Assembly (NCBI GenBank): GCA_007376395.1
Contig: VMGE01000007.1
Coordinates: 8,037 to 72,036 of the forward strand
Reading direction: 5' to 3'
Length of the DNA stretch: 64,000 bases
From: Microgenomates group bacterium Gr01-1014_5
Lineage (GTDB): Bacteria; Patescibacteriota; Microgenomatia; UBA8517; UBA10165
The notes beneath the pieces were generated by a model. That model had not been told where the DNA came from, did not search any database, and saw only the letters and a program-made list of their open reading frames with translations. Positions 40,035 to 61,930 of the stretch are shown in pieces. Both the position numbers and the translations under genes were made by a program. Each line of letters begins with the position of its first letter. Position 1 is the first letter of the stretch.

Positions 40035-42713
40035 TTATACGACAAAATTAATCGTCTTACCGGGCACAAAAATTACCTTTTTCGGCTCAGAAGTTAAATA
40101 CTTAGCCACAAACTCAAAGCTTCTGGCGCGCTCCTCTACTACTTTCTGATTATTTGCCTCGTCGGCAGAGACAACAACAACCCCCCTGTATTTACCATTT
40201 ACCTGAACAGATATGGAAACAACCTCATCAATTACCAAAACAGGGTCGTACTCTGGCCACGGGGCAAAATGAATCGACTCTTTGTGCCCCAACTCATTCC
40301 ATAGTTCCTCTGTCATGTGCGGCGCAAACGGAGCAAACAGCTTCAGTAGAGTTTCACCCGCTTCCTTAGATATTCCGTTTTCCACTTTTGAATTTTGAAT
40401 TTTGAATTTTGAATTCAATTCCTCTAAGGAATTGACGTACTCCATAATCCCTGAAATTGCTCTGTTGTAACGCAAGCCTTCTAAATCCTCTGTCACTCTT
40501 TTTATAGCCTTATGAATTAAGCGTTCTTGTTCATTGGAAATTGAAAATTGTGAATTAGAAATTGATTTTTGTACGAGTCGCCAGACTCTGTTCAAAAATT
40601 TAAACATTCCTTCCATGCCTGTGTCCCGAAAGTCGCCACCCTGGTTAAATGGTGATAAAAACATCAAATATAATCTTAAAGTATCAGCTCCGTATTTTTT
40701 GATGTAGGCGTCCGGCACAATCACGTTTCCTTTACTTTTACTCATTTTCGTTCCCTCGCAGATTAAAAGTCCGTGAGCAAAAAATCTAGTGAACGGCTCT
40801 TCAAAATCAAGGTGTCCCCAGTCATGCAAAGCCATAGTGACAAAACGGGAATACATAAGATGCAAAACTGAATGTTCTGCTCCGCCAATATACATATCGA
40901 CGGGTAACCAGTGTTTAGTTATTTCCTCGTCCCAGGGTAGACTCTCGACGTTTTCTTCCTTCGATTTGCTCTTTAATTTTAAATTTGAAATTTTAAATTT
41001 TAAATTCTTCGTTACGGAAGGGTAACGAAGGAAGTACCAAGCAGAATCTAAAAATGTATCTGAAACATCAGTCTCCCGCCGCGCATCAGAGCCGCACCCG
41101 GGGCATTTAACATTTATAAACTTCTCGTCTTGGGCTAATGGGGATTTGCCAGTTCCAGTGGGACGATAATTCTCAATATATGGAAGTTCTACCGGAAGTT
41201 GGTCTTCGGGCGCCGGGTACCAGCCTGCTGCCGATGCAGCGGAATTTGAAATTTCAAATTTTAAATTTTTAATTCCATTCCCCTCAACCATTCTTTCGGC
41301 CTCATCAGTGATAAACCATGAATCCCCTCTATCTGCACAAGCCTGGCAATATATCATAGGGATAGGTGGTCCCCAATATCTTTGGCGCGAAATTAACCAA
41401 TCGCGAAGGTGATAAGTCGTCATTTTCTTACCCCAGCCATTTTCTTCTAATGAACTTAATATTTTTTCCCGATCGCGAGGCCACGATAGTCCATTCCAGT
41501 CTCCCGAATTTATTATCGTCCCCTCGCCAACATACGCCTCTTGCAAGTCTTGATCAGTTTCTTTTTCAGACTTGATTGTAGAAACAATATCGAGATTATA
41601 TTTACTAGCCATCTCGAAATCCCTCTGGTCGTGCGCAGGAACACCCATAACCGCTTCAGAACCATATCCGGAAACCACATAGTTTGATATATACACCGGA
41701 ATATCTTTATTGTTGGCCGGATTAACCACATATGCTCCAGTAAAAACTCCAGACTTGTCTTGATTTTGGCTTCGCAAGGTCTCTCCTTGCGAACCTAAAT
41801 TCGGTGCAGATATGGTTTGTTGTTGTTTAATATAGTCTGATACGACTTCTTTTTGCGCCTCCGTTGTTAGCGTAACAACTAGCGGCGAGTCTGGGGCAAT
41901 CACCATGAATGTCGTACCGTAAAGCGTATCCGGCCTTGTAGTGAAACAGGTTAAGGTGTCGGTAGTTAGTTGTTTGGCCTCCCTACTCGCTACTTTAAAC
42001 TTAACCTCTGCGCCATAAGATCGCCCTATCCAATTTCTCTGGGCAATCTTAATTTTTTCTGTCCAATTAATTTTTTCTAAATTATCTAACAATCTATCAG
42101 CATAATCTGTAATCTTAAAAAACCATTGCTCGAGATCGCGTTGCTCGACAACACTTTTACACCTCTCGCACTCTCCGGCTATAACCTGCTCGTCTGCCAA
42201 AACCGTCAAACAAGACGGGCACCAGTTAACTTTGGCTTTTTGCCTGTAAGCTAGGCCATGCTTAAACATTTGGATAAATATCCACTGTGTCCATCTGTAA
42301 TAATCCGGATCATACGTCTCCAAAGTTCTTGTCCAATCAAATGCATTACCTGTTGCTTGAAGTTGTGAGTAAAACCGCTCTTCTGTGCGTTTCGAGACTT
42401 CAGTCGGATGTTCATTGATCTTAATTGCATAATTTTCAGAATGGATTCCAAATCCATCAAGCCCCATAGGTTCAAATACGTCATTACCTTTCATTCTTTG
42501 GTATCTCCCCCAAATATCTGCACCCGTAAAAGCATACATATTCCCGGCATGCAGACCTTCAGCCGAGGGATACGGGAACATCATCAGGTTGTAGTAGGGT
42601 TTCTTCGACTTGCCCAAGTCAGGAGAAAAGAGTTTTTGCTTCTGCCACACAGATTGCCACTTGGGTTCAATTACGGCTGGATTATAACTCACGGTTACCT
42701 TTTTTGCGGCCAT
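40035..42713 (-). CDS. leuS: leucyl-tRNA synthetase
   Basis: PYPS..GLHAGN (HMGH-type) and KMSKSKGN motifs; 892 aa. Carries three in-frame AT-rich low-complexity inserts. Confidence 0.9.
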   Translation of the reverse strand: MAAKKVTVSYNPAVIEPKWQSVWQKQKLFSPDLGKSKKPYYNLMMFPYPSAEGLHAGNMYAFTGADIWGRYQRMKGNDVFEPMGLDGFGIHSENYAIKINEHPTEVSKRTEERFYSQLQATGNAFDWTRTLETYDPDYYRWTQWIFIQMFKHGLAYRQKAKVNWCPSCLTVLADEQVIAGECERCKSVVEQRDLEQWFFKITDYADRLLDNLEKINWTEKIKIAQRNWIGRSYGAEVKFKVASREAKQLTTDTLTCFTTRPDTLYGTTFMVIAPDSPLVVTLTTEAQKEVVSDYIKQQQTISAPNLGSQGETLRSQNQDKSGVFTGAYVVNPANNKDIPVYISNYVVSGYGSEAVMGVPAHDQRDFEMASKYNLDIVSTIKSEKETDQDLQEAYVGEGTIINSGDWNGLSWPRDREKILSSLEENGWGKKMTTYHLRDWLISRQRYWGPPIPMIYCQACADRGDSWFITDEAERMVEGNGIKNLKFEISNSAASAAGWYPAPEDQLPVELPYIENYRPTGTGKSPLAQDEKFINVKCPGCGSDARRETDVSDTFLDSAWYFLRYPSVTKNLKFKISNLKLKSKSKEENVESLPWDEEITKHWLPVDMYIGGAEHSVLHLMYSRFVTMALHDWGHLDFEEPFTRFFAHGLLICEGTKMSKSKGNVIVPDAYIKKYGADTLRLYLMFLSPFNQGGDFRDTGMEGMFKFLNRVWRLVQKSISNSQFSISNEQERLIHKAIKRVTEDLEGLRYNRAISGIMEYVNSLEELNSKFKIQNSKVENGISKEAGETLLKLFAPFAPHMTEELWNELGHKESIHFAPWPEYDPVLVIDEVVSISVQVNGKYRGVVVVSADEANNQKVVEERARSFEFVAKYLTSEPKKVIFVPGKTINFVV
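40386..40420. repeat. (TTTTGAA)x4 microsatellite inside leuS coding sequence
   Basis: ttttgaattttgaattttgaattttgaattcaattcc, translated on the minus strand as ...LNSKFKIQNSKVEN. Confidence 0.8.
40975..41010. repeat. AATTT/AAATT-type AT-rich microrepeat inside leuS (encodes KNLKFKISNLKLKSK)
   Basis: taattttaaatttgaaattttaaattttaaattc. Similar elements lie at 41241-41277, 40538-40575, 36286-36325 (argS) and 29041-29069 (GT4 gene). Confidence 0.75.
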
Positions 42714-43089
42714 ACCGATATTGTAGTTGAATTAAGAAGAAAGAATCAAGAAATACGGGTAAAAGTCCACAAAATCGCTCCAATCTCGCGTCATTAATTC
42801 TTGTCAACCCGAAAGTACGACCGCTAGCAGACGAACTTTTACCAAACAATAGTAAATTTCTAAAAAATAACCTAACCAACCGGGATTTTGCTCACTTATG
42901 CGCCTAGTTTCGAATTTCTAGCACAAACTATATCATGTACCAATATTGCCACCAATGTCCGGTTTGATATATTTAGGTAAGCTAAAATTTAGCGACTTGT
43001 TCCGTGTGTAGTTCTGTGAAAACTGATTTTAGTTAAGTTTCTGTTCTTTTCAGACTATATCATACCCCTTAATAGGTAAAAATTGGGGG

Positions 43090-43119
43090 TTGACAAGGGT
43101 TTGGCGCTATTAATATAGT
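43090..43119 (+). promoter_or_regulatory. candidate promoter (TTGACA ... TAATAT/TATAGT) upstream of the 43237 gene and the giant gene
   Basis: Perfect -35 hexamer TTGACA at 43090-43095. -10-like TAATAT at 43111-43116 (15-nt spacer) and TATAGT at 43114-43119 (18-nt spacer). Confidence 0.35.
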
Positions 43120-43236
43120 GAATATGTTCAGTATAACCGCGTATAATTTTGTATAATCGAACCTGCGGTTCTCATATGTTCACTTGTGTTTCACGCAAGT
43201 TATAAAAGGACATAATCCGAAGCTAAATTAAAAATT

Positions 43237-43752
43237 ATGAATACCCTGCCTAAACAATTTGAGATTTATCTTGCCGAAACACTTGGTGTTTCTGGAAAAA
43301 CTCTGAGAAACTACAGAGCTGATCTTGGGCATTTTATCCGTTGGTCAAAGGTTCATTTGGAAAGCAAAGAAATTGCCATTAACGACTTGGAGTCTTTACT
43401 TCCTCACTTCTCCGGATATCTAGTTGCCACTTACAGAACTCATCAAGTGCATTTCGGGGTTCCGCAGTCAACAACGAATCGCAGGTTATCGACACTTCGC
43501 AATTTTGGAAAATTTTTGAGTGCTTCAGGCATCACAGAAAACAATCCCACCCAACTTATCACCAATCTCAAGGAAGAATTAACCTTGGAGCAGGAACTGG
43601 AAGGAATCGTGCGTGAATACGCTAAAACTTTGGAAAAGGAAGGCATTTCTGCGGTGACTTGCAAAAACTACTTGTCAGACATAAAACATTTCGTCAACTG
43701 GTTAAAGCTAAATCAAGAAGTCTGGATAGACAAAGCAATTCAGACAAGCTAA
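43237..43752 (+). CDS. protein made of tyrosine-recombinase N-terminal core-binding (SAM-like) domain repeats, with no catalytic domain
   Basis: FEIYLAETLGVSGKTLRNYRADLGHFIRWS and VREYAKTLEKEGISAVTCKNYLSDIKHFVNWL both fit the XerD/integrase N-terminal pattern (Y..L...G.S..T...Y..DL..F..W). A middle segment STTNRRLSTLRNFGKFLSASGITENNP fits the second half of the domain. Confidence 0.5.
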   Translation: MNTLPKQFEIYLAETLGVSGKTLRNYRADLGHFIRWSKVHLESKEIAINDLESLLPHFSGYLVATYRTHQVHFGVPQSTTNRRLSTLRNFGKFLSASGITENNPTQLITNLKEELTLEQELEGIVREYAKTLEKEGISAVTCKNYLSDIKHFVNWLKLNQEVWIDKAIQTS

Positions 43753-43757
43753 AAAGG

Positions 43758-43840
43758 CACGGGTAGCCAAAAATTACATCTGGGGGGATAATAATTTTTA
43801 GTTAATTCCGATTTAATCGGTATTAAGGCTACCCGCTCCT
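43758..43840 (+). other. structured intergenic element (nested inverted repeats) in the 155-nt gap before the giant gene
   Basis: GGGTAGCC (43758-) pairs with GGCTACCC (43828-), enclosing an inner hairpin CCGATT-TA-AATCGG. Confidence 0.3.
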
Positions 43841-43907
43841 TCGAGTATACCACCACAAACAAGAGGTTTGTAAAGAGTCACTTTGCTTCCCCCGGCTGTG
43901 CCCGAAA

Positions 43908-46900
43908 ATGAGTAACCTGCCCAACATTAGCCCTGAGCTCCTTGCTAAATATCAAAGCGAGATAGAGAACCTGCATTCTTCTGCTACAATCCGCCGCAAA
44001 ATGTCCTCCCTTGGCCGCTTTCTGCGCTGGGGAAGCGCTAACGGCCACTTCCCCTCGGCAGCTGCCGGCGTGGTTGTGGTTTCTCCTTCCACTGGCGAAA
44101 CAACCTTTACTCCCCCGATTAAAGACGTGGAAAGTTTTGTCAAAGAGGCTGGAAACCAGGCAACCCGGAAACCAGGCAACCCGACAACCGGAAAAGCTGA
44201 GTTTTGGTGGGAAAAGAATCAGGGGGTCGGAAAACTTAGCACTTCAGAGAATCAGCAGAATGGGTCTGGAAATCAGGGTGTCGGCTTTTCTGCCAAAGCC
44301 TATTTCAAGGTTGGCTTATTCACACTCACCGGCCTTACGGCGGTCGCGCTCGCTTTTTTCCTTCTCAAAGAACTTCCCAAGGGCAATAAGTCGGTATTTG
44401 TGGCGCTCTCCGGGTTTGCGCAAGGACTGCTCGGGGTGTCGGAAGGTCAGAATACCAGTGATTCCGGCGGTCAGGAAACCAGTACTTCAGGAAATCAGGA
44501 CACCGGCACTTCTGATACACCGGCTGACGGATCCACCGATACACCGACTACTGACACCCAGACCTCCGATACCCTCACCGCACGCATCCTTAATTTAATC
44601 GGTAGCGATCCCCTCATTCGAGCGCTAGGTGGTCCCCTTCTGCTAAACAGTCTTGGTATCACTCTCAAAACCGATACAGGCTCGGACGGAAACATCACCT
44701 TAGCTCCAGATGGCGAAGGTCAAGTACTCCTTCGTTCCTCTACAACAAGCAAAGATTCGTTTTCAGTGACCAACTCTAACCTGACATCTGGTAACCTGAT
44801 CTCTGGTTTAGTAGGTCATGATGGATCAAACTATAACCTTTTTTCCCTTTCTTCCGGTTCTGAACCTGTAGAACGATTTACGGTTGATTCACACGGAAAC
44901 ACAGTTATTGGAGGGACAGTACAAACCGGAGGACAACTTACCTCCCCTTCGGTCGTTACCCAGCAACTGTCGGTTGAGCGCGATATCAGTCTCACCGGCA
45001 ATCTGCTAGTCGGAGGCGTAACCCGTTTGAATTCTGCCGGCCGACTTGCTTCTATCACGGGCTTCTACCAAGATTCAGGATTATTTGAAATTGACCAAGG
45101 CTCGGCCGACTCTGCCCGGATTACCAAATATCCAACTGCCGCCCAAGGCCCGTCAACTGCCGACTCTGTCACTTACAAAGTCGATGAATCCCGCACCACC
45201 AATTCTGCCTACGACACGCTTGTCCTCTACCGCACAGGCGGAACTTCATCGGCCTACGCTTTGGATATCAGAGACGGCAACTTGCATGTTGCCGACAACT
45301 CTACTTTTGACGGAGACGTAACCGTCAGCGGTACGCTCACGGCCAACATCAACAGCAGTACCCTTACTGCCGGAGCGCTTACTGTTACCGGCAACACTAC
45401 CATGGGCGGAGATTTGGCTATCAATGGCGGGGATTTAACTTCAACAGCCTCAACCTTTAACTTTTTAACTTCAAACGCAACAACTGTCAACCTCGCAACA
45501 GCCGCAACTTCGTTATCAGTCGGGGCCTCAACCGGAACTACTACTGTCAACAACGCACTCACCGTTACCGGAGCTTTTACCGCCAACGGACCGGTTTCCT
45601 TGGGCGATGGCGACGACACAGTCACCATCAACGGCACGACTTTTACCTCAACCGAAACCTCCCCGATTACTTTTAACATCGCCGACGGTATCGTTGACGC
45701 CTGGGATTTGCAGGAAGGCACGCGGAACTATATCAATGTCAATACTACTAATACGTCTGAGGCTGTGCAATTTGGCAACGCTACCACTAATCCCAGCTTC
45801 GGATTTTTAGGAACAGGCGCGGTAACCATAGCAGGATCTGCTGAAGGAACGAACGCACTTGTGATAACCGCCGGTGACATCACGGCAACTGCCGGAGATA
45901 TTAACTTAAACTCCTCAACTCCTGACATTAAAACGAGCGCCACCGGCACTGGCTCACTCTTCAACGCAAACTTAACTACCCTCAACATTGGCGGGGCCCT
46001 AACCACTCTCAATATCGCTGATTCAACCACTACCAAAACTATTGACATCGGCGGAGTGACAGCCTCTGGAACTGACACCATAAATGTCGCGACAGAAGGA
46101 ACACTAGCCGACGTCATCACCATAGGCAACACCAACGCCTCAACGACTCTAGCCCTCACCGGCGGGGATGACTGGAATCTAGCGGCAACTGGTGTACTTA
46201 CGCTCTCTGCATCGGCAGCTCAGACAACAGCCATAGTTATCACCGATACTGACTACACCAATGCCTTATCAATTGCCGACAATAACATCACTGGCACTAC
46301 CTACTCGCTTATCGGCACTGCAGCCTCTATTGATTTCTCAGAGTTTGATGTGTCTGCCTCAACCGGAAGCGTAACAATTAATGACACAGCAGATGCCGGA
46401 GCGTTCTTGGTCGAAGGCACAAATTTAGACATCAATTCTCTTGACTTTGTTGCCGCTGGAACAATCACAGCAGCCTCCGGACAGGGTCTAACCCTGTCAA
46501 CGACAAGTGCAGATATAGCTTTGACAACCGCTACTTCTGGCAATATCAACCTAACAACTGGTGCTGCCACGGGTTTAGCCAACATTCTTACAGGAAATTT
46601 AAAGGTGGGTAATGGGACGCCAACTGTTTCTTTGGACGGAGAAGATGCCTATGTTGAAGGGACGCTTGAAGTTGATGGAGCAACGACTTTAGATGGCGCC
46701 CTCACTGTTGCAGGAACTTTAACCGCTAATGGAACAGTTGCAATTGGCGACGGCGGAGACGCGATTACATTAAGCGGAACAACAATTACTTTAACTGCCA
46801 ATACTTCAGGCAATGATATTACCTTAAACCTGACAGATAACAATGCCGATGCGTTAGATATCCAGGAAGGGGCCAACAACTACCTCAATGTTGGAACTTT

Positions 46901-49900
46901 AGACGCGGGAGCCACCATGGTGTTTGGAAACGCAACTACCAACCCAACCTTTGGCTTTCTTGGCACCGGTCTCATCACCATAGCCGGAGCAGGAGCTGAA
47001 ACCAACTCTCTCACCCTTACAACAGGAAACATTACCTTAACTGATGGAGACCTTACTCTCTCAGGTGGTGAAATCTCCGCCACGGCGGATGATACGACAG
47101 GAACTTCCTTTTCGTTTACAGGAGTCAACACCACAGGCGACACCCTTGGGGTGACCGCTAATTCTCTAAGTTCTGGAAATGCTTTAAACATTGGGGTTAA
47201 CTCAACAGGAGCAGCTTCCAATACCCAAAAAGGATTAAACATTGCGCTGTCAGGAACTAACAGCACAACAACTCAAACAACGTACGGCGCACATATCTCC
47301 AACACCCATGCTGGTACTCTATCAACCAATGTAGGCCTGTATGCCACTGCCACAGGCGGAACCACTGCAAACTATGCTGCTATATTTGAAGCTGGTAATG
47401 TTGGGATTGGCGACACCACTCCAGATGCCTTTCTGGAAGTCTTAGGAATCACGGAACAGTTAAGACTGACTTACACTGACGGGACTGTTGACTCCAGATT
47501 TACTGTTGATTCTTCAGGTAATTTAACAATTAATCAAACAGGTACGGCTGGATATGTCCGTATCGGAGACTCTGGTACTCCTGGAGTTGCAACAGGAGAT
47601 GATGATTTGTATGTTGAGGGAGATTTAGAAGCAGATGGGACATTGACTGTAGCAGGAGCAGCAACATTTGCATCTTCTGGTTCGTTTGACTCCCTCACTG
47701 TTGGTGGAGGGTATGGGGCAACTGGGGTAACAATTAGCAATGCTGGAGCAATCTCTGCTAATGGGGCTTTAATTGTTGACTCTACTTCCCTGCTTACCGG
47801 AGCAGTCACCATCACCGGTGTTGCGGAAGGAACCGCTTCTCTCACTCAAACTCTGGGAGACCATGTTATTACTGATGGAGACCTTACTCTCTCAGGTGGT
47901 GAAATCTCCGCCACGGCGGATGACGCAACAGGGACAAGCTTCTCCTTTACAGGAGTAAGTACAACTGGCGATACTCTTGGTATAACGGCTAATTCTTTAA
48001 CGTCAGGAACAGCGTTAACTATTGCTTCTACGGGAACTGCTTTCAACGGCGAACTCTTAACCTTGAGCAAGACAGGCGCTTCAGGTTCAACCGCTTTCAC
48101 TTCAGATATAGCCAATGTTACCTATTCTCAAACCTTTAATGGCGGGGTTGGCCTTGCCTCAACAGGAAATGTCCTGGATGTTTCTCGCGCGATCATCCTG
48201 GACAACGCAGGTAACACCCACACCATCTCGGGAGCTTTAGTTGCTCTGTCTTCAAATGGAACCCAAACCGCGGGAACGTTAACTGATACGGCAAATGTCC
48301 TCTCACTAACTCAGTCTTACGCTTCCGCAACAGGAGCAGTACTTTCCTTTGCTAATTCCGGAGCTGGAGTTGATATCTTGGGAACTTCTTCTACCTGGCA
48401 GGTAACCAAAGCAGGAGCTGGAACCTTTGCTTCCCTCTCAACCGGTGCTGGAGCAATCTCTGGAGGAGCAGGAAGCTTTACCACCTTAACTTCATCTGGA
48501 GCATCAACTATTGGGACTGGATCTTCTTTGACCAACACCTTTGGATCTGGGGCTTCTTCAATAAACACCATTGGAGCAGTTACTACCCCGGGAGCGCTCA
48601 CTTTGCACGGGGCAACTACCTTGGACAATACCTTTACTGTTTCAGGCAGTAACTTAACCTCACTGGGCGGAAACCTAACCGTAACAGGAACTGCCTGGAC
48701 AGCTACCCCTACTATCTCAGGACTGATTACTGCTACTTCAGGATTGACTGCAAATGGAACACTCACTGCCAATACTGATGTAGACTTTGTTTTCGCTTCT
48801 ACTGAGAACTTTACCATTGCCAATACTACAGCAGGAGCAGGAGATGTGTTGGGATTATCATTTACTTCTGCCAACTCAACAGATGGAATTGACATAGCTT
48901 TTACCGACACAGCCGACGCGGCAGCAGACACGATTTCCGGATTAAATATCTCTTTAACTTCGGCAGCTGACGCCAACGATACACTTTCTGCAATAAACAT
49001 TGCCGCATTGACCGGAAACACTGCTTTGGAATATGCGATAAACATCGGTTCTGGTTGGGATACGGATATTAACGCTACTACAAGTCTTGAAATAGGTATT
49101 GGCGGGACAAATGAATTAACTCTCACTACTACAGCTTTCTCTCCTTCAACCAGTGATGGCAGTGCTTTAGGAACCGGCTCTCTCATGTGGTCTGATTTGT
49201 TCTTGGCTAACCTCTCTGTCATCAACTTTAACAATGGAGATGTAACTATTACCCATGCGACAGACGCTCTGACTATAGCTGGCGGAGCAGTAACCATCAC
49301 AGGTGTTGCCGAAGGAACAGCTTCTCTTACCCAAACTCTTGGGGATCATGTGATTACCGATGGAGATTTGACTCTTTCTGGCGGTGAAATCTCCGCCACG
49401 GCGGACGACGCGACTGGCACCAACTTCTCTTTCACCACAGGCGGACTCACCACCGGAACAGGACTTGGAGTTAGTACGACCGCGTCTGCTTCTACTGCCT
49501 TTACTGGCGACACTCTATCTGTATCTCTATCTCAGAACTGGACAGCTGCCTCCTCCCCTACCAATACTGGAAATATTCTTGACCTTTCCCGCGCACTTAC
49601 TGTTGGTGTAGCAGGCCAAACTGTCACCCAGTCCGGAGCTTTAGCCAAGCTCTCCTCTTCCGGAACTGAAACAACAGGAGACATTGCCGATTCTTCCAAT
49701 ATCTTGCTTTTAGAACAAAATTGCGGAACCGGTGTTACTTGCTCGGGAGCAGTTTTAAAAATTACCAATTCCGGCACAGGAGCCGATATTGCTCTTAAAA
49801 ACGATGAAACAATTTCAAATTCAACTAACGGCACAATTGCCTTTGGCGCAGATAAATTAACTCTTGCAACTGCCGCAGTTGGTGGAAACCTAGTAACTGC

Positions 49901-52900
49901 AAATTATGCGGGTGCGGCAACCCAAACTTCAGCCCTTTTTGGCTTAAATTTTGACATCTCAACTAACGTTACGGTCCCTAACACTGCTTCAGGCAACCAA
50001 ACCGGGCTTTCCTTAACTGTAAAAGACGGCGGATCCTCGGCAACTGCAATAGGCGTAAATCTTGCAGGAACTTTTGACCGGGGATTAGACTTTTCAAGTT
50101 CTACTATTTCTTCCGGAGGCTCAATAATCTTTAACGACACCTCCTCAACTATTGATTTAGCTGCGGTTGCCGATAATGTTTTGGAAATTACCAATTCTTT
50201 GGGCACAACGGCCAATGACAATCTGATCACTCTGGAGATTGACGCAAACACCGATGCTTCAGACAAGATCTTATTGCGTGTTGTCTCTGAGGTTGGAGGC
50301 GTAGAACAAACTAAATTCTCGGTCGACTCAGACGGAGACGTGATAGCTGGTGGTACATTCTCTGCTGTAGAAATTAACTGTACAGACTGTTTGGATTTTA
50401 CAGACCTTGAAGACACGCTCGACCTTGACGCGGCACTGGTCCTTAACCAAACCACTAACACTTGGTCCCAAACCTTTACCGGGGACACAACTGTTGGTCT
50501 TACTTACACCGCAAACTCCCTGACAACCGGCACTGCAGTTCGCCTGACTTCCTCCGGGACTATCACTACAGGAGGAGAAATTCTGGATTTGGTTGGAAAT
50601 GGGATAACGACCGGAAATTTAGTAACCGGCAGTACAACTGCCCTTACTTCCGGCTCAGCTTTATCCCTAACTGGACCATCAGCAGCAACTGTCGGCATAA
50701 CCGGCTCTTTTGTCAATCTCACATCTGATGTGGGAGCCTCGGGCAAGGTTTTAAGTTCAACTGCAACTATTGACTCTACGGGTGTCGGGGCAGAAGCCTA
50801 CAACCTTTATGCGGCAACTACCAACTCAAATTCCACAAATACAAATACCGTCAACGGCATTTACTCTACTCTAACTGACGCGGTTGCTCTAGGAAATACT
50901 AATTACGGTATCCGCTCTGTGTTAAGTAATACCGGAGCAAATACAGCAGGAACTAAAAAAGCATATGGTCTCTATTCAAACGTAACTAACACCTCAGCAG
51001 GTATTGGAGGGTCTGCAGAGACCTATGGCGGATATTTTAGTGTTACCCCTGATACCGCAGGTTCAGCAACAGCTTATGGTTTGTACGTAACTACTACCGC
51101 GGCGGCAGATACGTCTTATGGTATTGATATAGAAGGAGCCGGTAATTTTACTTATGATATAGATCTCCAGTATGACGAGACTATTTCCAACGCCACAGAC
51201 GGCACAATTGCCTTTGGTGTTGGCGGATCGGCAGAAGTTAATTTAACAGCAACTGATCTTTCTCCCGCCGTCAGTGACGGTAATGCTCTTGGTACCACAG
51301 CCCTGATGTGGTCTGACCTCTTCTTGGCAAACCTCTCTGTCGTCAACTTTAACAATGGCGATGTGACACTAACCCATTCAACTGACCTTCTGACAATTGC
51401 AGGGGGTGGGGTAACTTTTGATGGCGCAGTCACTGCCAATACAGATGTTGATTTTGTGTTTGCCGGAAATGAGAATGCGACTATTACGAATACTACTAAT
51501 ACTCTGGGAGCTTCCGGAATGCTAGACCTTGCTTCAACTGGTTCTACCACAGATACCAGAACCCTTGATCTTTCGACAACCTTTAGCTCAACAGGAGCTA
51601 CTACGTCGTATGGGCTATACAATGCCTGGACATCAAGCGCAGTAGTAACAGGAGCGTCTGTTTCCCAAACCGCGTATGGGAGTTACAACACTGCTGCCAA
51701 AACAGGAGCAGACGATGCGACGGGAACATATACTCTCTACGGCACTTACAATACTGCTTCAAATACAGGCAGAACAGCAGTGGGAACAGTGAATACGTAT
51801 GGGGGGTACTTCTCGGCAACAGGAGATACCGCAGGAACCTCAAGTACCTACGGTCTCTACTCCATTGCCTTATCAGGAGACACGGGTTATGGATTATATA
51901 TTGGTGATGGGACTGCCACAACAGACTATGGTATCTACCAATCAGCCACAACAGATGACAACTACTTTGCAGGCAATGTCGGCATCGGCGATACCACTCC
52001 CGACGCGTTATTGGAAATAAACCAAGGCGATATGTTTTTCTATGGAAATACTCACGGAGCGGCTGCAGGAACAGACTATAACGCATTTAATAATGGTATT
52101 GCATTTATTGATGGTAATAGTGGAACGGGAGCAGGAAATTACTCCTCGCTCATAACAGGCGTCGCAAATGGAACATGGGGTGCAGATCTGCAATTTATTA
52201 CAAGAGCGGCGGCCGGCGGAGCTGCAACTGAAAAGATGAGAATAAGAGCAGATGGCAATGTTGGCATCGGTGACACAACGCCTGCGGCTCTTTTTACCGT
52301 CGGCAATACCGATCTCTTCCAAGTATCCTCAACCGGAGGCGCGGTAACTATCGCTGGCGTTGCAGAGGGCACTGCCTCTCTTACCCAAACTCTGGGAGAT
52401 CATGTAATTACCGATGGAGATTTGACTCTTTCAGGTGGAGAAATTGCCGCTACTTCAGATGATGCCACCGGAACCAATTTCAGCTTTACCACAGGCGCGC
52501 TTTCCACAGGTCTTGGAATAGGAATTGTTTCAACTTCTCAAGCCATAACTTCCGGAGGACTCTTGTCTGGCACTCTCACCTCTTCTTCTGCTACTGGTTC
52601 GTTTAGTGGTGACATTGGCCTGCTTTCAACTTCCCGAACTAACGCTACAGCTTTGCAAACACTAACTGACTCTGGGAATATATTAGACTTGGGAAGAACC
52701 ACTATTACCAACCATGCAAGCGCCACTACTAATGTCACAGGTTCAATCCTTAACATTTCCAATATCGCAACCCAAACTCTGGGAACACTTACCGACTCTG
52801 CTAACTTGGTTGTTGTTACCCAGGACGCAGATGCAACAGGAGCTCTACTCCACCTTGTTTCAAATAGAAGCTCTACCAACTACTCGCTGTTAATCGAGCA

Positions 52901-55900
52901 AACAAGCGGCGGGACAGATACGCTTTCTTTAACTGACGCAGGCAATTTGGCAATTCTTGGAGATTTAACCATTACAGGAGGCAATATCACTTCAGCCCTA
53001 ACTCTTGATTCAACTTTAACAGTTACAGGAACAACAACACTCAACGGCATAGCTAATATAGGCGACGGGGGCGACGCGATAACGCTTTCCGGAACGACAA
53101 TTACTTTAACTGCTAATGGGGTTGGAAATGATATAACCTTTAACTTGGTTGACAATAATGCCGATGCGCTGGATATTCAGGAAAGTACAAACAATTACAT
53201 TAATATTGGAACCTTAGACGCAGGCGCGGCTATGGTATTTGGAAACGCAGGCACCAATCCTACTTATTCTTTCTCGGGCAGTGGCGCGGTAACAATTACA
53301 GGTTCTGCGGAAGGCACTGCCTCTCTTACCCAAACAACTGGCGATCACGTAATCACTGACGGAGATTTAACTTTATCCAGTGGTGAAATTACAGCTACCA
53401 GCGACGATACAACAGGAACCTCTTTCTCGTTTTCCGGCACTAACCAATCAGGAGATCTCATGGGGATCACCGCAAATTCCCTCACAACAGGGACAGCCTT
53501 GTCCCTGTCCTCTACCTCTACCGCAGGAGGAGCTTCCGGTGTATCAAAAATGATCGATATAAATCGAACCGGTACAAATGCTCAACTTGCCCATACCGCT
53601 TACGGCATTTACTCTGCGGTATCCACCGGCAACGTCACCAGTGGAACTAACATCGCGGGTTATTTCTCGGCAAGTAACGCAACCACAGCCAACTATGGAT
53701 TGATTGTTGAAAATGGCAGTGTGGGTATTGGGATAACCGCACCAGCAACCACCTTAGACATAGACTCAAACAGCAATACTCAAAACTTAAGGCTAAGGGG
53801 TACTGCGGGAACAACCGAAATTGCAGATATGTTTATCAGAGCATCTGGAGCCTTGGTCTTGGGAACAGAAAACACAGGAGCGGCGCTAGCATACGTTGAA
53901 ATAGATCCTGAAGACAATGAGTACGGACTTATTTTAAGAGATTCTAATACAGGGGCAGGTACTAGCGCAACTTACGCCAACCTTTATACCACCGACGCAA
54001 CTGTTGATTACTTAAATATTGTGGTTGGCGCAACAACTGCTACAGCAGGGCTGGTAATTGATGATGATAATCAAGTCGGTATAAATACCGTAACTCCTGA
54101 ATTTCCACTTGATGTCTACACTGCTACCGATGTCTATGCAGTTGCATTCGGAGACAACACAAGTAGTAATTCCAACCTTCGAATCGCTGGTACGGCTGGT
54201 GGAGCTACTGGATATGGGTTAATTCAAATGTTCCAAGGCAACACAACGGGGGGAAACTTGGTACTCCAAAGTGCTGCTGGAAGTGTCGGTATCGGCACAA
54301 CTGCTCCGGATGCGGCACTGGAAATAAACCATGCAACTGGGGATTCTTTAAGATTGACATACAATGATTCAAACGGAACGGCTGCCAATTACACTGACTT
54401 CTCTCTCTCCTCCACCGGAGCATTGACTTTGACAGGTAGCGCGGCGACTCTTGGAGCCAGCGCAACAGCAGAAAAAACTTTCTTCACCTTAACTCCTGGG
54501 ACTATTACACTCACTGCTCCAACTGCCGTAACCTCCCTCATGGAAACGGCAGTTATTACCGGATCAACTATTGCCGCTTCTGCGGCAACCACCGTTAATA
54601 ACGCGGCAGGTCTTTCCATCTCTGCTCCCATAGATAGTACCAATGCTACCCTCACCACTTCCTCTGCTCTAAGAATTTTAGATATCACTTCAGGAGCAGG
54701 AACATTAACAACTCAATATGGAATTTATATAGATGCCCCAACCGGCGGAGCCACCTCAAATATTGGCCTCTACAACGCAGGGACGACCACACTGGTGGGA
54801 GCGGTTACCAATGCTGGTGGAATCTCCGGAGGAGCAGGTAGCTTTACAACTCTTGCTGCTTCTTCAACTTTAGCCGTAACCGGAGATACCACTCTAACAG
54901 GAGATTTAGCAGTCAATGGCGGAGATTTAACAACAACGGCCACAACATTTAATTTATTAAACGCAATGACCGGCACGCTCAATTTCGGGGGTGGAGTTGA
55001 CACTGTAAATATTGGCGCGGCGGGCGGAGCGGCGACAACTATAAACGTTGTAGGTGCGGTGGCGTTTAGTGGGTCAACAGGTGTTGGTCTTTCTATCGCA
55101 ACTGGTGGCCTCACCGTCACTGCTGGCGGGGCAACAATTACGGCTGGAAATTTGGGAATTGGAGTAGCAGTAAACACAGCTATTAGCGCCCGAGCGAATT
55201 CAACAGCCCTTCTCACTGCCGACCAGATTGGTTTTTACTCCGACCCGATTTTCACAACTGCGGCAACAACAAAAGGAGCTGGTTTTCTCTCATCCTTTAG
55301 AACAGCAGGTTCTACAACCATGACTGATGGGTATGGATATCTCGTAGAAAGCCCCGCTATTGGAGCTCTTTCTGCTATCACCAACTTCTATGGCGTTTAT
55401 GTAAAGAATCAAAACAGTGCCCTGATAACCAATGCTTATGGTGTCTACATTGCAGCACAAACAACGGCCGTCACCACCAACATCGGCCTCTACAATGCAG
55501 GGACAACGACTTTGGTGGGGGCGACCTACATCAACGACACATCAAATGCCAACTCCACCACAGGCCTCACCATCAACCAAGGAGCAAGTGATGATCAAAT
55601 TTTTGCACTGAAATCATCTGATGTTCTTCATGGAATGACAGCCGTTGTGGAAACGGATACGTTCGCAGCATTCTATAAGACAAGCGCTGGTGGCGGTGGA
55701 CTAGAAATAGATTCAACAACTGACGCAGATACCGAGGCCAATCGACCGGCATTTCTTGTACAAGCAACGTCGGGTGTGGCCGCAGATACTACCAAAACAA
55801 CCTCTGGACGTGGAGTCTTTGAAATCCGATCTGGTCTAGTTTCCGGAACTGGTCGCGCTGATGTCGGAACGAATGGCAGCCTTATGGCTGTACTCAATAA

Positions 55901-58900
55901 CGCCACAGCTCGATTCATCATCGATGCAGAAGGAGATACCTGGCAAGATGGAGATGTTTCTTTAAATGGCGGAGATGTTACCACTGCCGCCACAACCGCC
56001 ACTCTCTTTAACACCACTGCAACTACCCTTTCTCTGGGAGGCGGGGCAACAACTGCTTTGAACTTGGGTAATGGTACCTCTTCTTACACTGCTATCAATC
56101 TCGGCGCAGGAGCAGCAGCAGTCAATGGAATTAACATTGGCGGAACAGGAGCAAATGTTATTGCTATTGGCAATACCCAAACCGCTGGATCTGTGGCTAT
56201 TGGCGCAGCCATGACAGGAGGAACTATCACTATTGGCGGAACAGGATTACAAACAGGAACGATAGCTTTGGGAACAGGCACAGGAGCGCAAGCAATTAAT
56301 TTAGGAACAGGGGGTACAGGAACAAAAACAGTTATCTTGGGGGGATTAGATGGTAACTCTGTCACCACCATAAATTCCGGCGCGGGAGCGATAAATATAG
56401 GCACAGCTATTGGCAAAACTATAAATATTGGTAATATAGGAGTCACTCTTAACGTAACTTCCGGCACGGGCAGTCAAACCTATGCTTCATCAGTTGCCAC
56501 CACCGCTACTACATCTTCTGCCTTTGTCTTTACCGGTAATTCTCTGACCACTGGAACAGGATCATACTTTAATTCATCCTCTCTGACTACAGGAAAATTA
56601 GTTGATATCAATACAGGTTCTGCCAACACCTTCACCACAGGCACATTATTAAATATAGCTTCCACCTCCACTGCTCTGACTTCTGGCAAGTTCTTGAACA
56701 TCTCCAACGGCTCAGACATCTTTACGGTAACCAACACCGACTTTACCACTTCCCTCCCTGCCAACTTCACCTCAGCAGGAGATGTGGGGATAGCATATGA
56801 CATCAATTTCACTAATCCGACGGCTTCATACATCAAATCGCTTGCACCATTATATATACAGGCAGGAGAGAGTTTTGCTTCCCAGGACTTGACTTTGAAA
56901 ACATATAACCAGGGGTCAGTCGTAATTGATAGTTCGGTAACAACAGGAACTGGGGTAAATATGACAAACATCGGCTTAACTACTGGCACTGGTATGCTTC
57001 TTGCACATACCACTTCAGTAATTGCTGCCGGTGGATCACTTGCAAGAATATCATCAACTGGAATTGATACTTCTACCACAACTGGAGTTCTTCTTGATCT
57101 CTCCTCTACTGCCTCTACTGCAGGCACACAATTCCTGCAAACATACTCTGGACTAACTACAGGAATTGGTCAATCAATAGTGGCGAATGCACTGACTACA
57201 GGTGAGGCTTTCATCATTCCTCATACCACCTCGGTTATCGCTGATGGCGGATCATTGGCTAGAATTACCTCTTCCTCGGTGGATACAGGGGGTGCAACAA
57301 ATGGAGTACTGCTTGACTTAGCTTCTACCGGGTCAACGGCGGGTACTCAATTCCTGCAGACCTATTCAGCTTTAACTACGGGAATTGGACAGTCTATAGT
57401 AACTAACGCTCTGGCTGGCGGATCAGCGCTTAGTCTTGCCTCCTCCTCTACAGCCTTTACCGGAGATATGATAGCTGTAACGCTCTCGGGATCAAACGCT
57501 GCAAATACAGGAAATCTTCTCGACCTCACCAACTCCGGCACGTCAAACACCAACACAACTGCATATATCAAACACTATGCGACCGGCACAAACAACCTCG
57601 CGTTTAGAATTGATGATGTATCAGGAGACACCACCCCATTTGCCGTTGACGGAACAGGAAGTGTGGGTATTGGAACCACTGCTCCCCAAGGTAACCTAGA
57701 AATATATAACAACACAAATGCCGCCACCACTCCGCTATTTTCTATCCGTTCGGATTTTAACATAATCGGTAACTACGGTATGATCCGTTTTGGAGACTAT
57801 ACCCAAACTACCGCATATCAAAAAGGTGCGATTATCTATGAAAGTGTTTCTGGTGCTGCCAGAGGCAAGTTCCATATTGCCCTAGAAAATACTGATGGCG
57901 CGGGAACCGTGGCTCTCACTGATGCCAGACTTACTGTTTTATCAAGCGGGGCTATAGGTATTAACGACGTAACTCCCGATGCCTTCCTGGAAGTCTTGGG
58001 AACTACTGAACAATTAAGACTGACCTACACCGATGGTACTGTTGATACCAGATTCACGGTGGGATCAGGAGGAGACTTAACCATTGATGCATCAACAGAT
58101 GGATCAGGAAGTGAGACGCTGACCTTGACTGGATTTACTACCCTGACTGCCACTGGCGTTGCAGGTTCCTTTGACTCCCTCACTGTTGGCGGGGGGTATG
58201 GGAGTACGGGAGTAACAATTAGCAATGCGGGGGCGATATCTGCTGATGGTGATGCGATAATCGCCGGAGGTCAGACAACTGTTGGCGCAGGTGGAGCTGG
58301 AGCTATTGGTGTATCTCTTGGAACAACCAGCCTAACTGCCGCGCAATCCTCTGTCCTTAATCTTCAAGGATATGGTCAAGAGAATGAATGGGTTGGTATG
58401 GGTATGTATTACAGCGGGTCTGCTTGGACTGCAGCTGCTATCAGCGCTTTCCAACTCCAACACTCAGGATCTAACTTTCAAATATATGGCGATGCAAGTT
58501 TGACCGTTGGCGGTACTTACACTCCCACACTCAGATTTACAATAGCCGCGGCAACAGGAAATATAACCTCCACAGGAGACCTAGCGCTAAACGGCGGAGA
58601 CTTAACCACCACCGCCACCACTGCCACTTTGTTTGATACTACCGCCACTACCCTTTCTCTGGGAGGAGCTGCGACCACACTATTAAACTTGGGTAATGGT
58701 ACCGGTAACTATACGGCAATCAATTTGGGTTCTAGTACGGGAACCCACACTATCAACATCGCAGGAACAGGAGCAACTGGAATTGATACTATTAATATCG
58801 GTACTGGCGGCACAGCAGCCGATACTATTAACATAGGAAACGGGGCAACCGCCAATACCATCGCTATTGGATCAAGCTCCTCTACCACAGTCTCAATTAC

Positions 58901-61369: not shown

Positions 61370-61930
61370 ATGTCAAATTTGTCCAATAAGTCTAATTCTA
61401 ATGGAGGTTACCGCAACCTAGTTGCCTATCAACTAGCGGTGGTTATTTTCGACCTGAATGATCTTTTTGTTAAAAGCTATATCGATCCCCGCTCAAGAAC
61501 CAAAGACCAAATGGAACAAGCCGCGCGCTCCGGAAAGCAAAACATTGTCGAAGCTTCGCTTCTTCGCAGTCTGGAAGGGAATATCAAACTAACCGGCGTT
61601 GCGCGGGGAAGTTTTGGAGAGTTACTCGAAGATTACGAAGATTTCTTGAGAACTCGTGGCTTAAAACTTTGGGGAAAGGACGATCCTCGAGTTCTGGAAA
61701 TCCGAAGAATTCGGGTTTCCTCGAATAAGTCTAATTTGTCTAATTGGACTAATTCACCGGAGAGTTTTTGTAATTTGATGATCACTCTACTTCACCTTGA
61801 AAATTACCTTTTAGACCAGCTTTTAAGAAAGCTTGAGGAAAAGTTCGTTAACGAAGGCGGCTTCCGGGAAAACCTTTTCCGCCGCCGTTTAGAAAGGAAA
61901 TTTGGCAATGGTCTTACCGCCAGAAAGTAA
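61370..61930 (+). CDS. four-helix-bundle protein (Avd-like family), paralog of 31344-31928
   Basis: YRNLVAYQLAVVIFDL..., NIKLTGVARGSFGELLEDY, EGGFRENLFRRRLE. Confidence 0.5.
   Translation: MSNLSNKSNSNGGYRNLVAYQLAVVIFDLNDLFVKSYIDPRSRTKDQMEQAARSGKQNIVEASLLRSLEGNIKLTGVARGSFGELLEDYEDFLRTRGLKLWGKDDPRVLEIRRIRVSSNKSNLSNWTNSPESFCNLMITLLHLENYLLDQLLRKLEEKFVNEGGFRENLFRRRLERKFGNGLTARK

What the first reader, a model, noticed from the sequence alone, without database searches (positions are those of the whole stretch)
43237..44420. Tyrosine-recombinase core-binding (SAM-like) domains without a catalytic domain: two and a half copies in a 171-aa protein, and a further copy as the cytoplasmic N-terminus of the 5640-aa surface protein
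43237-43752 consists of segments fitting the XerD/integrase N-terminal domain pattern (Y..L...G.S..T...Y..DL..F..W.., then ...STTNRRLS.LR.F..FL...G...NP). The first ~45 aa of the giant protein (YQSEIENLHSSATIRRKMSSLGRFLRWGSANGHFP) fit the same pattern. They are followed by ~100 aa of low complexity and a single TM helix (YFKVGLFTLTGLTAVALAFFLL) before the ~5400-aa extracellular repeat region. A DNA-binding-type domain on the cytoplasmic side of a giant surface fibre is unexpected. It may tether the protein to nucleoid or plasmid DNA, act as a dimerisation module, or mark a decayed recombinase gene. The 155-nt gap between the two genes contains nested inverted repeats (43758-43840), a possible leader RNA structure.
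Basis: partly seen in the sequence, partly recalled or inferred. Interest (0 to 1): 0.7.

Follow-up and report, generated by a model that had tools for sequence, protein, structure and literature searches.

The report
Split recombinase-type domain on giant fibre
A small gene and the start of the neighbouring 5640-residue surface-fibre gene each encode part of a pair of DNA-recombinase-type "core-binding" domains that related bacteria encode as one piece, so the two proteins most likely snap together inside the cell, and the gap between the genes holds a conserved folded RNA.

Summary
The 171-aa protein has one complete Phage_int_SAM_1 (core-binding) domain plus the first half of a second: 1.5 copies, not 2.5. 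The giant protein's first ~50 aa are the missing second half, not a further copy. In related Patescibacteria the same parts form one continuous ORF: domain 1, domain 2, TM helix, giant fibre. Fused and split forms interleave in at least three clades. So the window shows a gene fission inside domain 2, and the two polypeptides are expected to reassemble by fragment complementation on the cytoplasmic side. There is no catalytic recombinase domain, and both pieces are under purifying selection, so this is not a decayed integrase. An exhaustive search found 133 representative relatives of the giant protein's N-terminus. About 85 start with the bare half-domain. The 155-nt spacer carries a conserved stem with compensatory changes. 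That stem encloses a hairpin with a G-rich loop, which is complementary to a C-rich box at the Shine-Dalgarno position of the giant gene. No Rfam family matches. What the module binds (DNA or a partner) is untested, and AlphaFold modelling of the reassembled domain alone was inconclusive.

The parts
43090..43119 (+). Promoter-like site TTGACA-18 nt-TATAGT, the likely promoter of a bicistronic small-gene/giant-gene transcript
   Evidence: It matches 11 of 12 consensus positions, and no terminator-like site was found in 42650-44000. The same -35/-10 layout lies upstream in nearly all related loci.
43131..43157 (+). Three -10-like boxes GTATAA(Y) phased exactly 10 nt apart (GTATAACCGCGTATAATTTTGTATAAT); role unknown (tandem -10 elements, pause sites or an operator)
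   Evidence: The boxes are conserved upstream of the split or fused gene in most loci, including clades at ~30% protein identity. The array occurs only here in the 64-kb window.
43237..43752 (+). Small gene (171 aa): core-binding domain 1 plus the first half (helices A-B) of domain 2
   Evidence: Pfam and NCBIfam matches. 63 homologues of 146-212 aa, mostly 150-180 aa. Window versus L020: 22 synonymous against 4 nonsynonymous codon changes.
43252..43524 (+). Domain 1, a complete Phage_int_SAM_1 domain (aa 6-96), basic (aa 1-110: net charge +4, pI 9.7)
   Evidence: Pfam profile positions 2-81 of 83 are covered. Charge and pI. AF2 pLDDT is 96-98 over this stretch.
43597..43707 (+). Half A of domain 2 (aa 121-157, ...GISAVTCKNYLSDIKHFVNWL)
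   Evidence: Phage_int_SAM_4 stretch at aa 129-157 on profile positions 6-34. It aligns to the first half of domain 1 in hhalign.
43753..43907 (+). 155-nt intercistronic spacer with conserved RNA elements
   Evidence: 6 of 155 positions differ from L020, against 23 of 172 third codon positions in the small gene. No Rfam match.
43760..43835 (+). Stem P1 (CGGGTAGCC 43760-43768 pairs with GGCTACCCG 43827-43835), enclosing P2 and P3
   Evidence: An enclosing stem was found in 17 of 18 loci, with arms that differ between loci. On the MAFFT alignment A9, 80% of cells pair, against 71% in shuffles (0 of 500) and 29-47% in slid controls; 7 of 13 pairs show compensatory changes.
43769..43799 (+). Hairpin P2 (AAAAATTA/TAATTTTT) displaying the G box CTGGGGGGA (43780-43788) in its loop
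   Evidence: The G box is invariant in alignment A6 and occurs once in the window. An A-rich/U-rich stem flanks it in every locus, but in varying register.
43808..43820 (+). Small variable hairpin P3 (CCGAT/ATCGG)
   Evidence: Present in the RNAfold MFE structure. Not conserved; other loci carry other inserts at this position.
43845..43853 (+). Conserved box GTATACCAC (family consensus TA-G/T-TATA-C/G-CAC) after the 3' arm of P1; role unknown
   Evidence: Present at the same relative position in all 18 spacers. It is not scored as a sigma-70 -10 element.
43887..43895 (+). C box TTCCCCCGG, complementary to the G box, ending about 11-14 nt before the giant gene's ATG
   Evidence: RNAduplex gives -16.2 kcal/mol (shuffle p 0.026). 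A comparable site exists in 16 of 18 loci. In 11 loci without an insert it ends 5-12 nt before the ATG. Combined Fisher p is 3e-11, but the loci are not independent.
43908..60830 (+). Giant gene (5640 aa): half B of domain 2, linker, TM anchor, T/G/A/S-rich fibre
   Evidence: ORF. Composition and single hydrophobic peak. The N-terminal 470 aa are 38-44% identical to the giants in L002 and L005. Relatives carry Peptidase_S74.
43914..44057 (+). Half B of domain 2 (aa 3-50, NLPNISPELLAKYQSEIENLHSSATIRRKMSSLGRFLRWGSANGHFPS)
   Evidence: Conserved in all adjacent giants. 7 synonymous against 1 nonsynonymous codon changes versus L020. It aligns to the second half of domain 1. It is contiguous with half A in the fused orthologues L015, L032, L035, L037, L039 and L040.
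44058..44303 (+). Variable low-complexity linker (aa 51-132)
   Evidence: Divergent, with indels, even against the 98%-identical relative L020. Much shorter in most relatives, where the TM helix sits at aa 70-100.
44304..44366 (+). Single TM helix / signal anchor (aa 133-153, FKVGLFTLTGLTAVALAFFLL)
   Evidence: This is the Kyte-Doolittle maximum, 1.95 over 21 aa. Across the family, flanking K+R favours an N-in topology.

Best explanation
The two genes together encode a tandem pair of tyrosine-recombinase-type core-binding (Phage_int_SAM_1) domains. This pair forms the cytoplasmic foot of a membrane-anchored giant surface fibre.

In related Patescibacteria the whole arrangement is one ORF: domain 1, domain 2, linker, TM helix, fibre. 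In the window's lineage the gene is cut in the loop between helices B and C of domain 2.
- The 171-aa protein supplies domain 1 and helices A-B of domain 2.
- The giant protein supplies helices C-D of domain 2, then a linker, one TM anchor and about 5400 aa of fibre.

Shown: the homology, the colinearity, the existence of fused orthologues, purifying selection on both halves, and the absence of any catalytic domain.

Inferred: the two polypeptides reassemble domain 2 by fragment complementation, which docks the small protein onto the fibre's cytoplasmic tail. The module does no recombination. It acts as a binding module. DNA is the most likely ligand, by analogy with core-binding domains and because domain 1 is basic, but this is untested.

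The two genes are probably co-transcribed. The spacer RNA folds into stem P1, whose 5' arm sits at the small gene's stop codon, around a hairpin whose GGGGG loop can pair with a CCCCC box over the giant gene's ribosome-binding region. The most likely role of this fold is to gate translation of the giant gene, for example by coupling it to translation of the small gene. That last step is inferred, with low confidence.
For: - Domain assignment.
- Half-domain logic: Pfam places the small protein's C-terminal stretch on profile positions 6-34 and the giant N-terminus on 39-78 (window) or 40-83 (L009, 33.5 bits).
- Fused orthologues: L015 aa 134-208 covers profile positions 4-82 in a single stretch. 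L032, L035, L037, L039, L040, P0082 and P0085 are also fused.
- Tightly coupled split forms: an 11-nt ATG/TAG overlap with AAGGAG 8 nt upstream of the ATG.
- The nearest relatives of fused forms are split forms (L015~L017 64%, L032~L031 69%, L039~L041 77%, L040~L043 72%), so fission or fusion recurred at the same loop.
- hhalign of the domain 1 profile against the paired domain 2 profile: 99.6%, E 1.9e-23.
- Census: of 133 clusters, about 85 begin with the bare half B followed by a TM helix, about 14 are fused, and about 6 have a single domain.
- Selection.
- Topology.
- AF2 model of small protein + giant aa 1-58: pLDDT 90.9, with the giant's helices at about 90. The top Foldseek hits are lambda Int, XerD, XerA and Cre core-binding domains.
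- RNA.
- No terminator between the genes, and a promoter-like site upstream.
Against: - No multimer prediction was possible.
- The window's own half B is not significant by itself (E 0.22).
- Ligand binding is untested.
- In the window, reassembled domain 2 is not basic (net charge 0).
- RNAalifold on a MAFFT alignment did not recover P1 or P2 by itself.
- The G-box/C-box pairing rests mostly on conserved runs, with only a few compensatory flank changes.
- Two loci (L001, L014) lack a C box.
Confidence: 0.7

Rival explanations
1. The small protein is an independent soluble DNA-binding regulator, for example of this operon. It does not dock on the giant protein. The giant's half B is a leftover or has its own role, such as a targeting or oligomerisation helix pair.
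For: - Domain 1 is complete and basic.
- A conserved array of three phased boxes lies just upstream of the operon in all clades and could be an operator.
- The domain-2-only model did not fold as a core-binding domain.
Against: - Half A and half B are each incomplete domains, yet both are conserved under purifying selection.
- They are contiguous in fused orthologues scattered among split clades.
- Split forms keep tight translational coupling.
- Docking and DNA binding are not mutually exclusive.
Confidence: 0.15
2. The spacer is not a regulatory RNA. It is a transcription terminator or attenuator (P1 followed by a U-rich tract) plus a separate promoter (the TATA-type box) for the giant gene.
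For: - In several loci a T-run follows the 3' arm of P1 (L008, L011, L014, L049, L051).
- The conserved TATA(C/G)CAC box resembles the -10-like boxes that sit close to many start codons in this genome.
Against: - The scan found no terminator-like site and no sigma-70-like promoter at the box in the window.
- The window has no T-run after P1.
- The box lacks the conserved final T of a -10 element.
- This model does not explain the G-box/C-box complementarity, or the C box sitting 5-12 nt from the ATG.
Confidence: 0.25
3. One fused polypeptide is made by recoding across the gap, through frameshift, translational bypass or RNA splicing.
For: - The halves belong to one domain.
- In one clade the overlap reads CUU-UAG-G, which resembles the prfB +1 frameshift site (the resemblance is from memory).
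Against: - Spacers are 113-688 nt, in varying frames, with stop codons.
- The giant's Met and the residues before half B (M-x-x-LP-x-IS) are conserved as protein.
- In the overlap clade the AAGGAG is 8 nt from the ATG, which is initiation spacing, and 14 nt from the CUU. The last small-gene codon also varies between members.
- The spacers are too short and too variable for group I or group II introns, and no Rfam intron matches.
Confidence: 0.03
4. These are remnants of a decayed XerC/D-type recombinase gene beside an unrelated giant gene.
For: The best NCBIfam hits are the XerC/XerD N-termini.
Against: - No catalytic-domain remnant is present.
- 63 + 133 homologous clusters share the same architecture.
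- There is a strong excess of synonymous changes.
- Synteny is conserved.
Confidence: 0.02

Closest known systems
N-terminal core-binding (SAM-like) domain of XerC/XerD-type tyrosine recombinases (Pfam PF02899)
   Same: The sequence family is the same: 60 bits for the small protein, and full profile coverage in fused orthologues. The four-helix fold is predicted, and the Foldseek top hits are lambda Int, XerD, XerA and Cre.
   Different: No catalytic domain follows. The domain is duplicated in tandem, sits before a TM helix of a giant fibre, and in this lineage is split between two polypeptides.
Rosetta-stone gene fission; naturally split proteins that reassemble, e.g. the split genes of Nanoarchaeum equitans (own knowledge, not checked here)
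   Same: Adjacent genes encode colinear pieces that are fused in relatives, which predicts a physical complex.
   Different: The break lies inside a ~85-aa helical domain rather than between domains. One partner is a 5640-aa membrane protein. Fission or fusion recurred at the same loop in several clades.
ToxR/CadC-type membrane-anchored one-component regulators (own knowledge)
   Same: The architecture is the same: an N-terminal cytoplasmic nucleic-acid-binding-type domain, one TM helix, and a large extracytoplasmic part.
   Different: The fold differs (core-binding four-helix bundle, not winged helix). The outside part is a giant fibre. DNA binding and regulation are untested.
Phage tail-fibre/tailspike-like proteins with a C-terminal Peptidase_S74 intramolecular chaperone
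   Same: Relatives' giant proteins carry Peptidase_S74. The window's protein has the same T/G/S/N-rich fibre-like composition.
   Different: Pfam detected no S74 domain in the window's protein. The protein is anchored by a TM helix in a cell membrane, not attached to a virion.
Long-range RNA structures that couple or gate translation of a downstream cistron, e.g. the MS2 coat-replicase interaction and the IF3-L35-L20 operon pseudoknot (own knowledge)
   Same: An upstream element near the stop codon of cistron 1 can pair with the ribosome-binding region of cistron 2.
   Different: The sequences and fold are unrelated, there is no Rfam family, and the function is untested.

Membership tests
Phage_int_SAM_1 / core-binding domain | Sequence match above Pfam's gathering score (small protein) | tested here: met
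   60.2 bits against a cut-off of 22.3, aa 6-96, profile positions 2-81 of 83.
Phage_int_SAM_1 / core-binding domain | Sequence match for the giant protein's N-terminus | tested here: met
   The window alone scores 12.3 bits (E 0.22, below the cut-off). Orthologue L009 scores 33.5 bits. Fused L015 covers profile positions 4-82. hhalign against domain 1 gives 99.6%. The feature is met at family level only, and only as a half-domain.
Phage_int_SAM_1 / core-binding domain | Four-helix core-binding fold | tested here: inconclusive
Phage_int_SAM_1 / core-binding domain | Binds duplex DNA | not testable with these tools
   The only evidence is indirect: domain 1 has mean net charge +6.4 and pI 9.9 across the family.
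Tyrosine recombinase (XerC/XerD/integrase) | C-terminal catalytic domain (Phage_integrase, with the R-H-R-Y active site) | tested here: not met
   No PF00589 hit in the small protein or anywhere in the giant protein. The XerC model scores 60.9 against a cut-off of 335 and matches only its positions 2-107. None of the 63 small homologues carries a catalytic-domain annotation.
ToxR-like membrane-bound regulator | Cytoplasmic N-terminal binding domain, single TM helix, external domain | tested here: met
   A single hydrophobic segment at aa 133-153. Family-wide positive-inside bias, p 4e-6. This concerns architecture only.
ToxR-like membrane-bound regulator | Winged-helix OmpR-type DNA-binding domain and transcriptional control | tested here: not met
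   The domain is Phage_int_SAM_1, not Trans_reg_C. Regulation was not testable.
Intrinsic terminator (for the spacer) | GC-rich hairpin followed by a T-run | tested here: not met
   No terminator-like site in 42650-44000.
Any Rfam family (for the spacer) | Covariance-model match | tested here: not met
   No relevant match at E<=5 in the window, and none at E<=1 in seven related loci.
Programmed frameshift / bypass / intron | Consistent frame relation or splice/landing sites; no independent start | tested here: not met
   Frames and lengths vary between loci, and the start codon and N-terminal residues are conserved.

The most novel reading that the evidence does not exclude
The tandem core-binding module is a DNA-binding foot that links the chromosome, or specific sites such as the conserved triple-box array upstream of the operon, to a host-contacting giant fibre. 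The split makes this a switch. The small subunit is held at the membrane by completing the fibre's half-domain, and it is released or captured according to the state of the fibre. That would be a contact-sensing, membrane-sequestered regulator built from a split recombinase domain. A dedicated intercistronic RNA would match synthesis of the two halves.
Probability: 0.1. Interest if true: 0.85.

Novelty: new variant of a known kind. Interest (0 to 1): 0.6.

Why it matters
It shows a recombinase DNA-binding domain reused with no recombinase function, as the cytoplasmic end of the giant surface fibres of Microgenomates (Patescibacteria). These organisms are thought to live attached to hosts, and their giant proteins are unexplained.

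The split inside a domain, with fused orthologues nearby, gives a concrete and testable prediction: an obligate complex between a 171-aa protein and a 5640-aa membrane protein. It is also a natural example of fragment complementation that evolved repeatedly at one loop.

The spacer adds a candidate new cis-acting RNA motif. The conserved promoter with three phased -10-like boxes adds a candidate control region. Together they make expression of a giant gene experimentally approachable.

Annotation pipelines label the small protein 'site-specific integrase/XerD', which is misleading.

Tried and rejected
- The search for homologous proteins with the giant's first 180 aa found nothing. The exhaustive phmmer search was needed.
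- Pfam on the whole giant protein found nothing at E<=0.01. No Peptidase_S74 was found in its last 600 aa, although relatives have it.
The permitted domain-2-only job gave an unconvincing model with no core-binding matches.
- The afdb50 fold library was unavailable.
- RNAalifold on a MAFFT alignment predicted only 3 pairs, between the G box and the CCC of the 3' arm of P1. Hairpin P2 could not be tested by column covariation, because its A-rich/U-rich stem pairs in different registers in different loci.
- Rfam found nothing.
- A functional link to the neighbouring comEA/comEC genes was rejected. That synteny is confined to Blackburnbacteria; distant clades instead have a Big_1 protein as neighbour.
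- Frameshift, bypass and intron readings were rejected.
- Four literature searches and one paper check found no description of this architecture.
- P0089 could not be located on a contig.
Full report
**What is at the coordinates.** The window has two consecutive + strand ORFs, 43237-43752 (171 aa) and 43908-60830 (5640 aa), separated by 155 nt.

The small protein matches Pfam Phage_int_SAM_1 at E 2.5e-16 (60.2 bits, cut-off 22.3) over aa 6-96. A second, partial stretch at aa 129-157 matches only profile positions 6-34. NCBIfam places the protein on the first ~110 positions of the XerC/XerD models, far below their full-length cut-offs. There is no catalytic domain here or anywhere in the giant protein.

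By eye and by profile, the small protein consists of three half-units:
- A: aa 8-37, F..YL....VSGKTLRNYRADLGHF..W
- B: aa ~60-104, ...STTNRRLSTLRNFGKFL...G...NP
- A again: aa 121-157

**The giant protein's N-terminus is the missing half.** On its own, the window's giant N-terminus gives only E 0.22 against Phage_int_SAM_1, on profile positions 39-78, which is the second half of the domain. Relatives make this solid:
- The first ~50 aa (M-x-x-LP-x-IS-PE-L-x-KYQ-x-EI...S..T..RK.SSL..FF.WA...GH...NP) are conserved in every giant gene that follows a small-gene homologue.
- The orthologous N-terminus in L009 scores 33.5 bits, above the cut-off, on profile positions 40-83.
- An HMM built from giant N-termini hits the B half of domain 1 in the window's small protein at E 8e-5.
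- hhalign of a domain 1 profile against a profile of 'half A (small C-terminus) + half B (giant N-terminus)' gives 99.6% probability, E 1.9e-23, colinear over 99 columns across the gene boundary.

**Fused orthologues show it is one domain cut in two.** In L015, a Patescibacteria MAG on a 778-kb contig, the small protein and the giant are one ORF. Its aa 134-208 cover Phage_int_SAM_1 positions 4-82 in a single stretch. L032, L035, L037, L039, L040, P0082 and P0085 are also fused.

Other relatives are split at the same loop but tightly coupled. They have an 11-nt overlap (ATGGAyTTTAG) with AAGGAG 8 nt upstream of the ATG, or a TAATG overlap, or a 4-nt gap. Blackburnbacteria-type loci, including the window, are split with spacers of 113-688 nt.

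Fused forms have split forms as nearest relatives: L015~L017 64%, L032~L031 69%, L039~L041 77%, L040~L043 72%. Fission or fusion therefore happened several times at the same inter-helix loop. This is what one expects if the fused and two-piece versions are functionally equivalent, that is, if the pieces reassemble.

**How widespread it is.** The small protein has 63 homologues. Nearly all are 146-180 aa stand-alone proteins, annotated if at all as 'site-specific integrase/XerD' in Candidatus Blackburnbacteria.

An exhaustive phmmer search with giant aa 1-470 against 1.84 billion representatives found 133 clusters. A local HMM census of these gave:
- about 85 that begin with the bare half B at aa 1-53, followed by a TM helix at aa 70-140
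- about 14 with the fused 1.5-2 domains and a TM helix at aa 200-280
- about 6 with one complete domain plus a TM helix

Synteny (LeuRS, a ~0.5-0.7-kb gap, small gene, giant gene) holds across Blackburnbacteria.

**Selection and topology.** Against L020, whose small protein is 98% identical:
- the small gene shows 22 synonymous against 4 nonsynonymous codon changes
- giant codons 1-55 show 7 against 1
- the linker after half B is full of substitutions and indels

The giant protein has a single strong hydrophobic segment (aa 133-153) and is 52% T/G/A/S. Across 74 family members, K+R is higher before the TM helix than after it (2.89 against 1.97, p 4e-6). This supports an N-in topology, although the window's own flanks are ambiguous. 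Relatives' giants carry Peptidase_S74, the tail-fibre intramolecular chaperone. Pfam did not detect it in the window's protein.

**Structure prediction.** An AF2 model of the small protein joined to giant aa 1-58 was confident: pLDDT 90.9, pTM 0.71, with the giant's two helices at about 90. Its best PDB matches were the core-binding domains of lambda Int, XerD, XerA and Cre, and stand-alone integrase N-terminal domains (3nrw TM 0.74), though with weak E-values.

**The spacer.** The nested inverted repeats are real, and they have counterparts in relatives.
- In 17 of 18 spacers a stem (P1, ancestral form GCGGGTGGTCGC/GCGACCACCCGC) encloses a hairpin whose loop carries an invariant G box (CUGGGGGAG).
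- The P1 arms differ between loci but stay complementary. The 5' arm lies within -21 to +44 nt of the small gene's stop codon, and inside the coding sequence in four loci.
- On a structure-blind MAFFT alignment of 13 loci, P1 has 80% of cells paired, against 71% in shuffles (0 of 500) and 29-47% when the partner is slid. Seven of 13 pairs show changes on both sides.
- A curated 18-locus composite gives similar numbers but leans towards the structure.

After P1 comes a conserved TATA(C/G)CAC box. Then, in 16 of 18 loci, comes a C-rich box complementary to the G box, with duplex energies of -10.6 to -20 kcal/mol. Nine loci have shuffle p<=0.05. The combined p is 3e-11, but this is overstated because the loci are related.

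The extensions of this pairing differ coherently between loci:
- GGGGGGAAA:UUUCCCCCC in L023
- UUUGGGGGGA:UCCCCCCAAA in L052
- UUGGGGAG:CUCCCCAA in L010
- GGGGGAGA:UCUCCCCC in L026

In the 11 loci without an insert, the C-box site ends 5-12 nt before the giant gene's ATG, which is the Shine-Dalgarno position.

The spacer differs from L020 at 6 of 155 positions, less than third codon positions in the small gene (23 of 172). No terminator-like site separates the genes, and a strong promoter-like site lies upstream of the small gene. Rfam has no match in the window or in seven relatives. RNAalifold alone did not recover the fold. The single-sequence fold is only mildly better than shuffles (z -1.84).

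I read this as a candidate intercistronic regulatory RNA that gates the giant gene's ribosome-binding region, possibly coupling its translation to termination at the small gene. The fold is moderately supported. The function is inferred.

**How it most likely works.**
- Shown: two tandem core-binding domains with no catalytic partner, the second divided between two co-oriented and probably co-transcribed genes. Both halves are conserved, and relatives are fused.
- Inferred: the 171-aa protein completes the giant protein's N-terminal half-domain on the cytoplasmic face of the membrane. Each fibre then carries a two-domain foot.
- Further inferred, weakly: the foot binds DNA. Domain 1 is basic across the family (net +6.4, pI 9.9), as core-binding domains are. 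This would give a nucleoid or site-specific tether, or a ToxR-like membrane-bound regulator.

A decayed recombinase, a recoded single polypeptide, and an unrelated soluble regulator are each less consistent with the data (see rivals).

**Comparison with what is known.** The domains belong to the Phage_int_SAM_1 family. The proteins are not tyrosine recombinases, because the defining catalytic domain was tested for and is absent. The overall layout resembles ToxR-type anchored regulators in architecture only. The split resembles Rosetta-stone fissions, but it lies within a small domain. I found no description of this architecture, or of the spacer RNA, in the searchable literature. I rate it a new variant of a known kind.

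Noticed in passing
window 43090-43157; upstream regions of L001-L052: One promoter-like layout lies upstream of the split or fused gene in nearly all loci, including clades at ~30% protein identity. It reads TTGACA, 17-18 nt, TATAGT/TATAAT, then three -10-like boxes GT(A/C)TAA(Y) spaced exactly 10 nt apart, then (A/G)A(A/G)(G/C)CT. The array is unique within the 64-kb window. It could be tandem -10 elements, sigma-dependent pause sites, or an operator for the operon's own core-binding domains.
   Followed up: partly
L023 4621-5055; L050 2135-2521; shorter inverted-repeat inserts in L001, L021, L026 and L052 just before the giant ATG: In several relatives an intervening-sequence-like element sits between the C box and the giant gene's ATG. 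In L023 and L050 it carries a 23S_rRNA_IVP (four-helix-bundle) ORF, with Pfam E 4e-12 for L023. In the other loci only the flanking inverted repeats remain.
   Followed up: partly
window 61370-61930 (+); L002 19651-20019: An ORF with a weak 23S_rRNA_IVP match (E 4e-4, below the cut-off) lies just downstream of the giant gene in the window. A clear IVP gene occupies the same position in L002/L003.
   Followed up: no
window, start regions of 40 long ORFs: Only 11 of 40 genes have even a lenient Shine-Dalgarno-like motif. Many have a -10-like box (TATAAT, TAGAAT, TACAAT, TATACT) 8-15 nt before the start codon, which suggests mostly leaderless or very short-leader mRNAs.
   Followed up: no
L015 4786-5463 (-), L042 2950-3444 (-), L039 3024-3461 (-): In distant clades the divergently transcribed upstream neighbour of the SAM-like/giant gene is a small protein with a Big_1 (invasin-type Ig-like) domain. 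In the window's clade the neighbours are instead LeuRS, ComEA and ComEC.
   Followed up: partly
L001 1-2656 (+): A second giant gene (3221 aa, running off the locus) on the same contig has faint precomputed hits to MerR/HTH_17 (excisionase-type) DNA-binding domains. This hints that cytoplasmic DNA-binding-type modules on giant proteins may recur in these genomes.
   Followed up: no
L005/L006/L007 10579-18651: The orthologous giant protein (2690 aa) carries a precomputed Intein_splicing hit in addition to Peptidase_S74.
   Followed up: no
window 36992-37876 (-) and 37983-39131 (-): ComEC appears as two separate ORFs, a Competence domain and a metallo-beta-lactamase domain. The arrangement is conserved in the relatives' loci.
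   Followed up: no
window 43157-43217: Compared with L048, the window's 5' leader of the small gene has a ~55-nt insertion that duplicates the ATAATCCGAAGCTAAATT segment following the third box.
   Followed up: no
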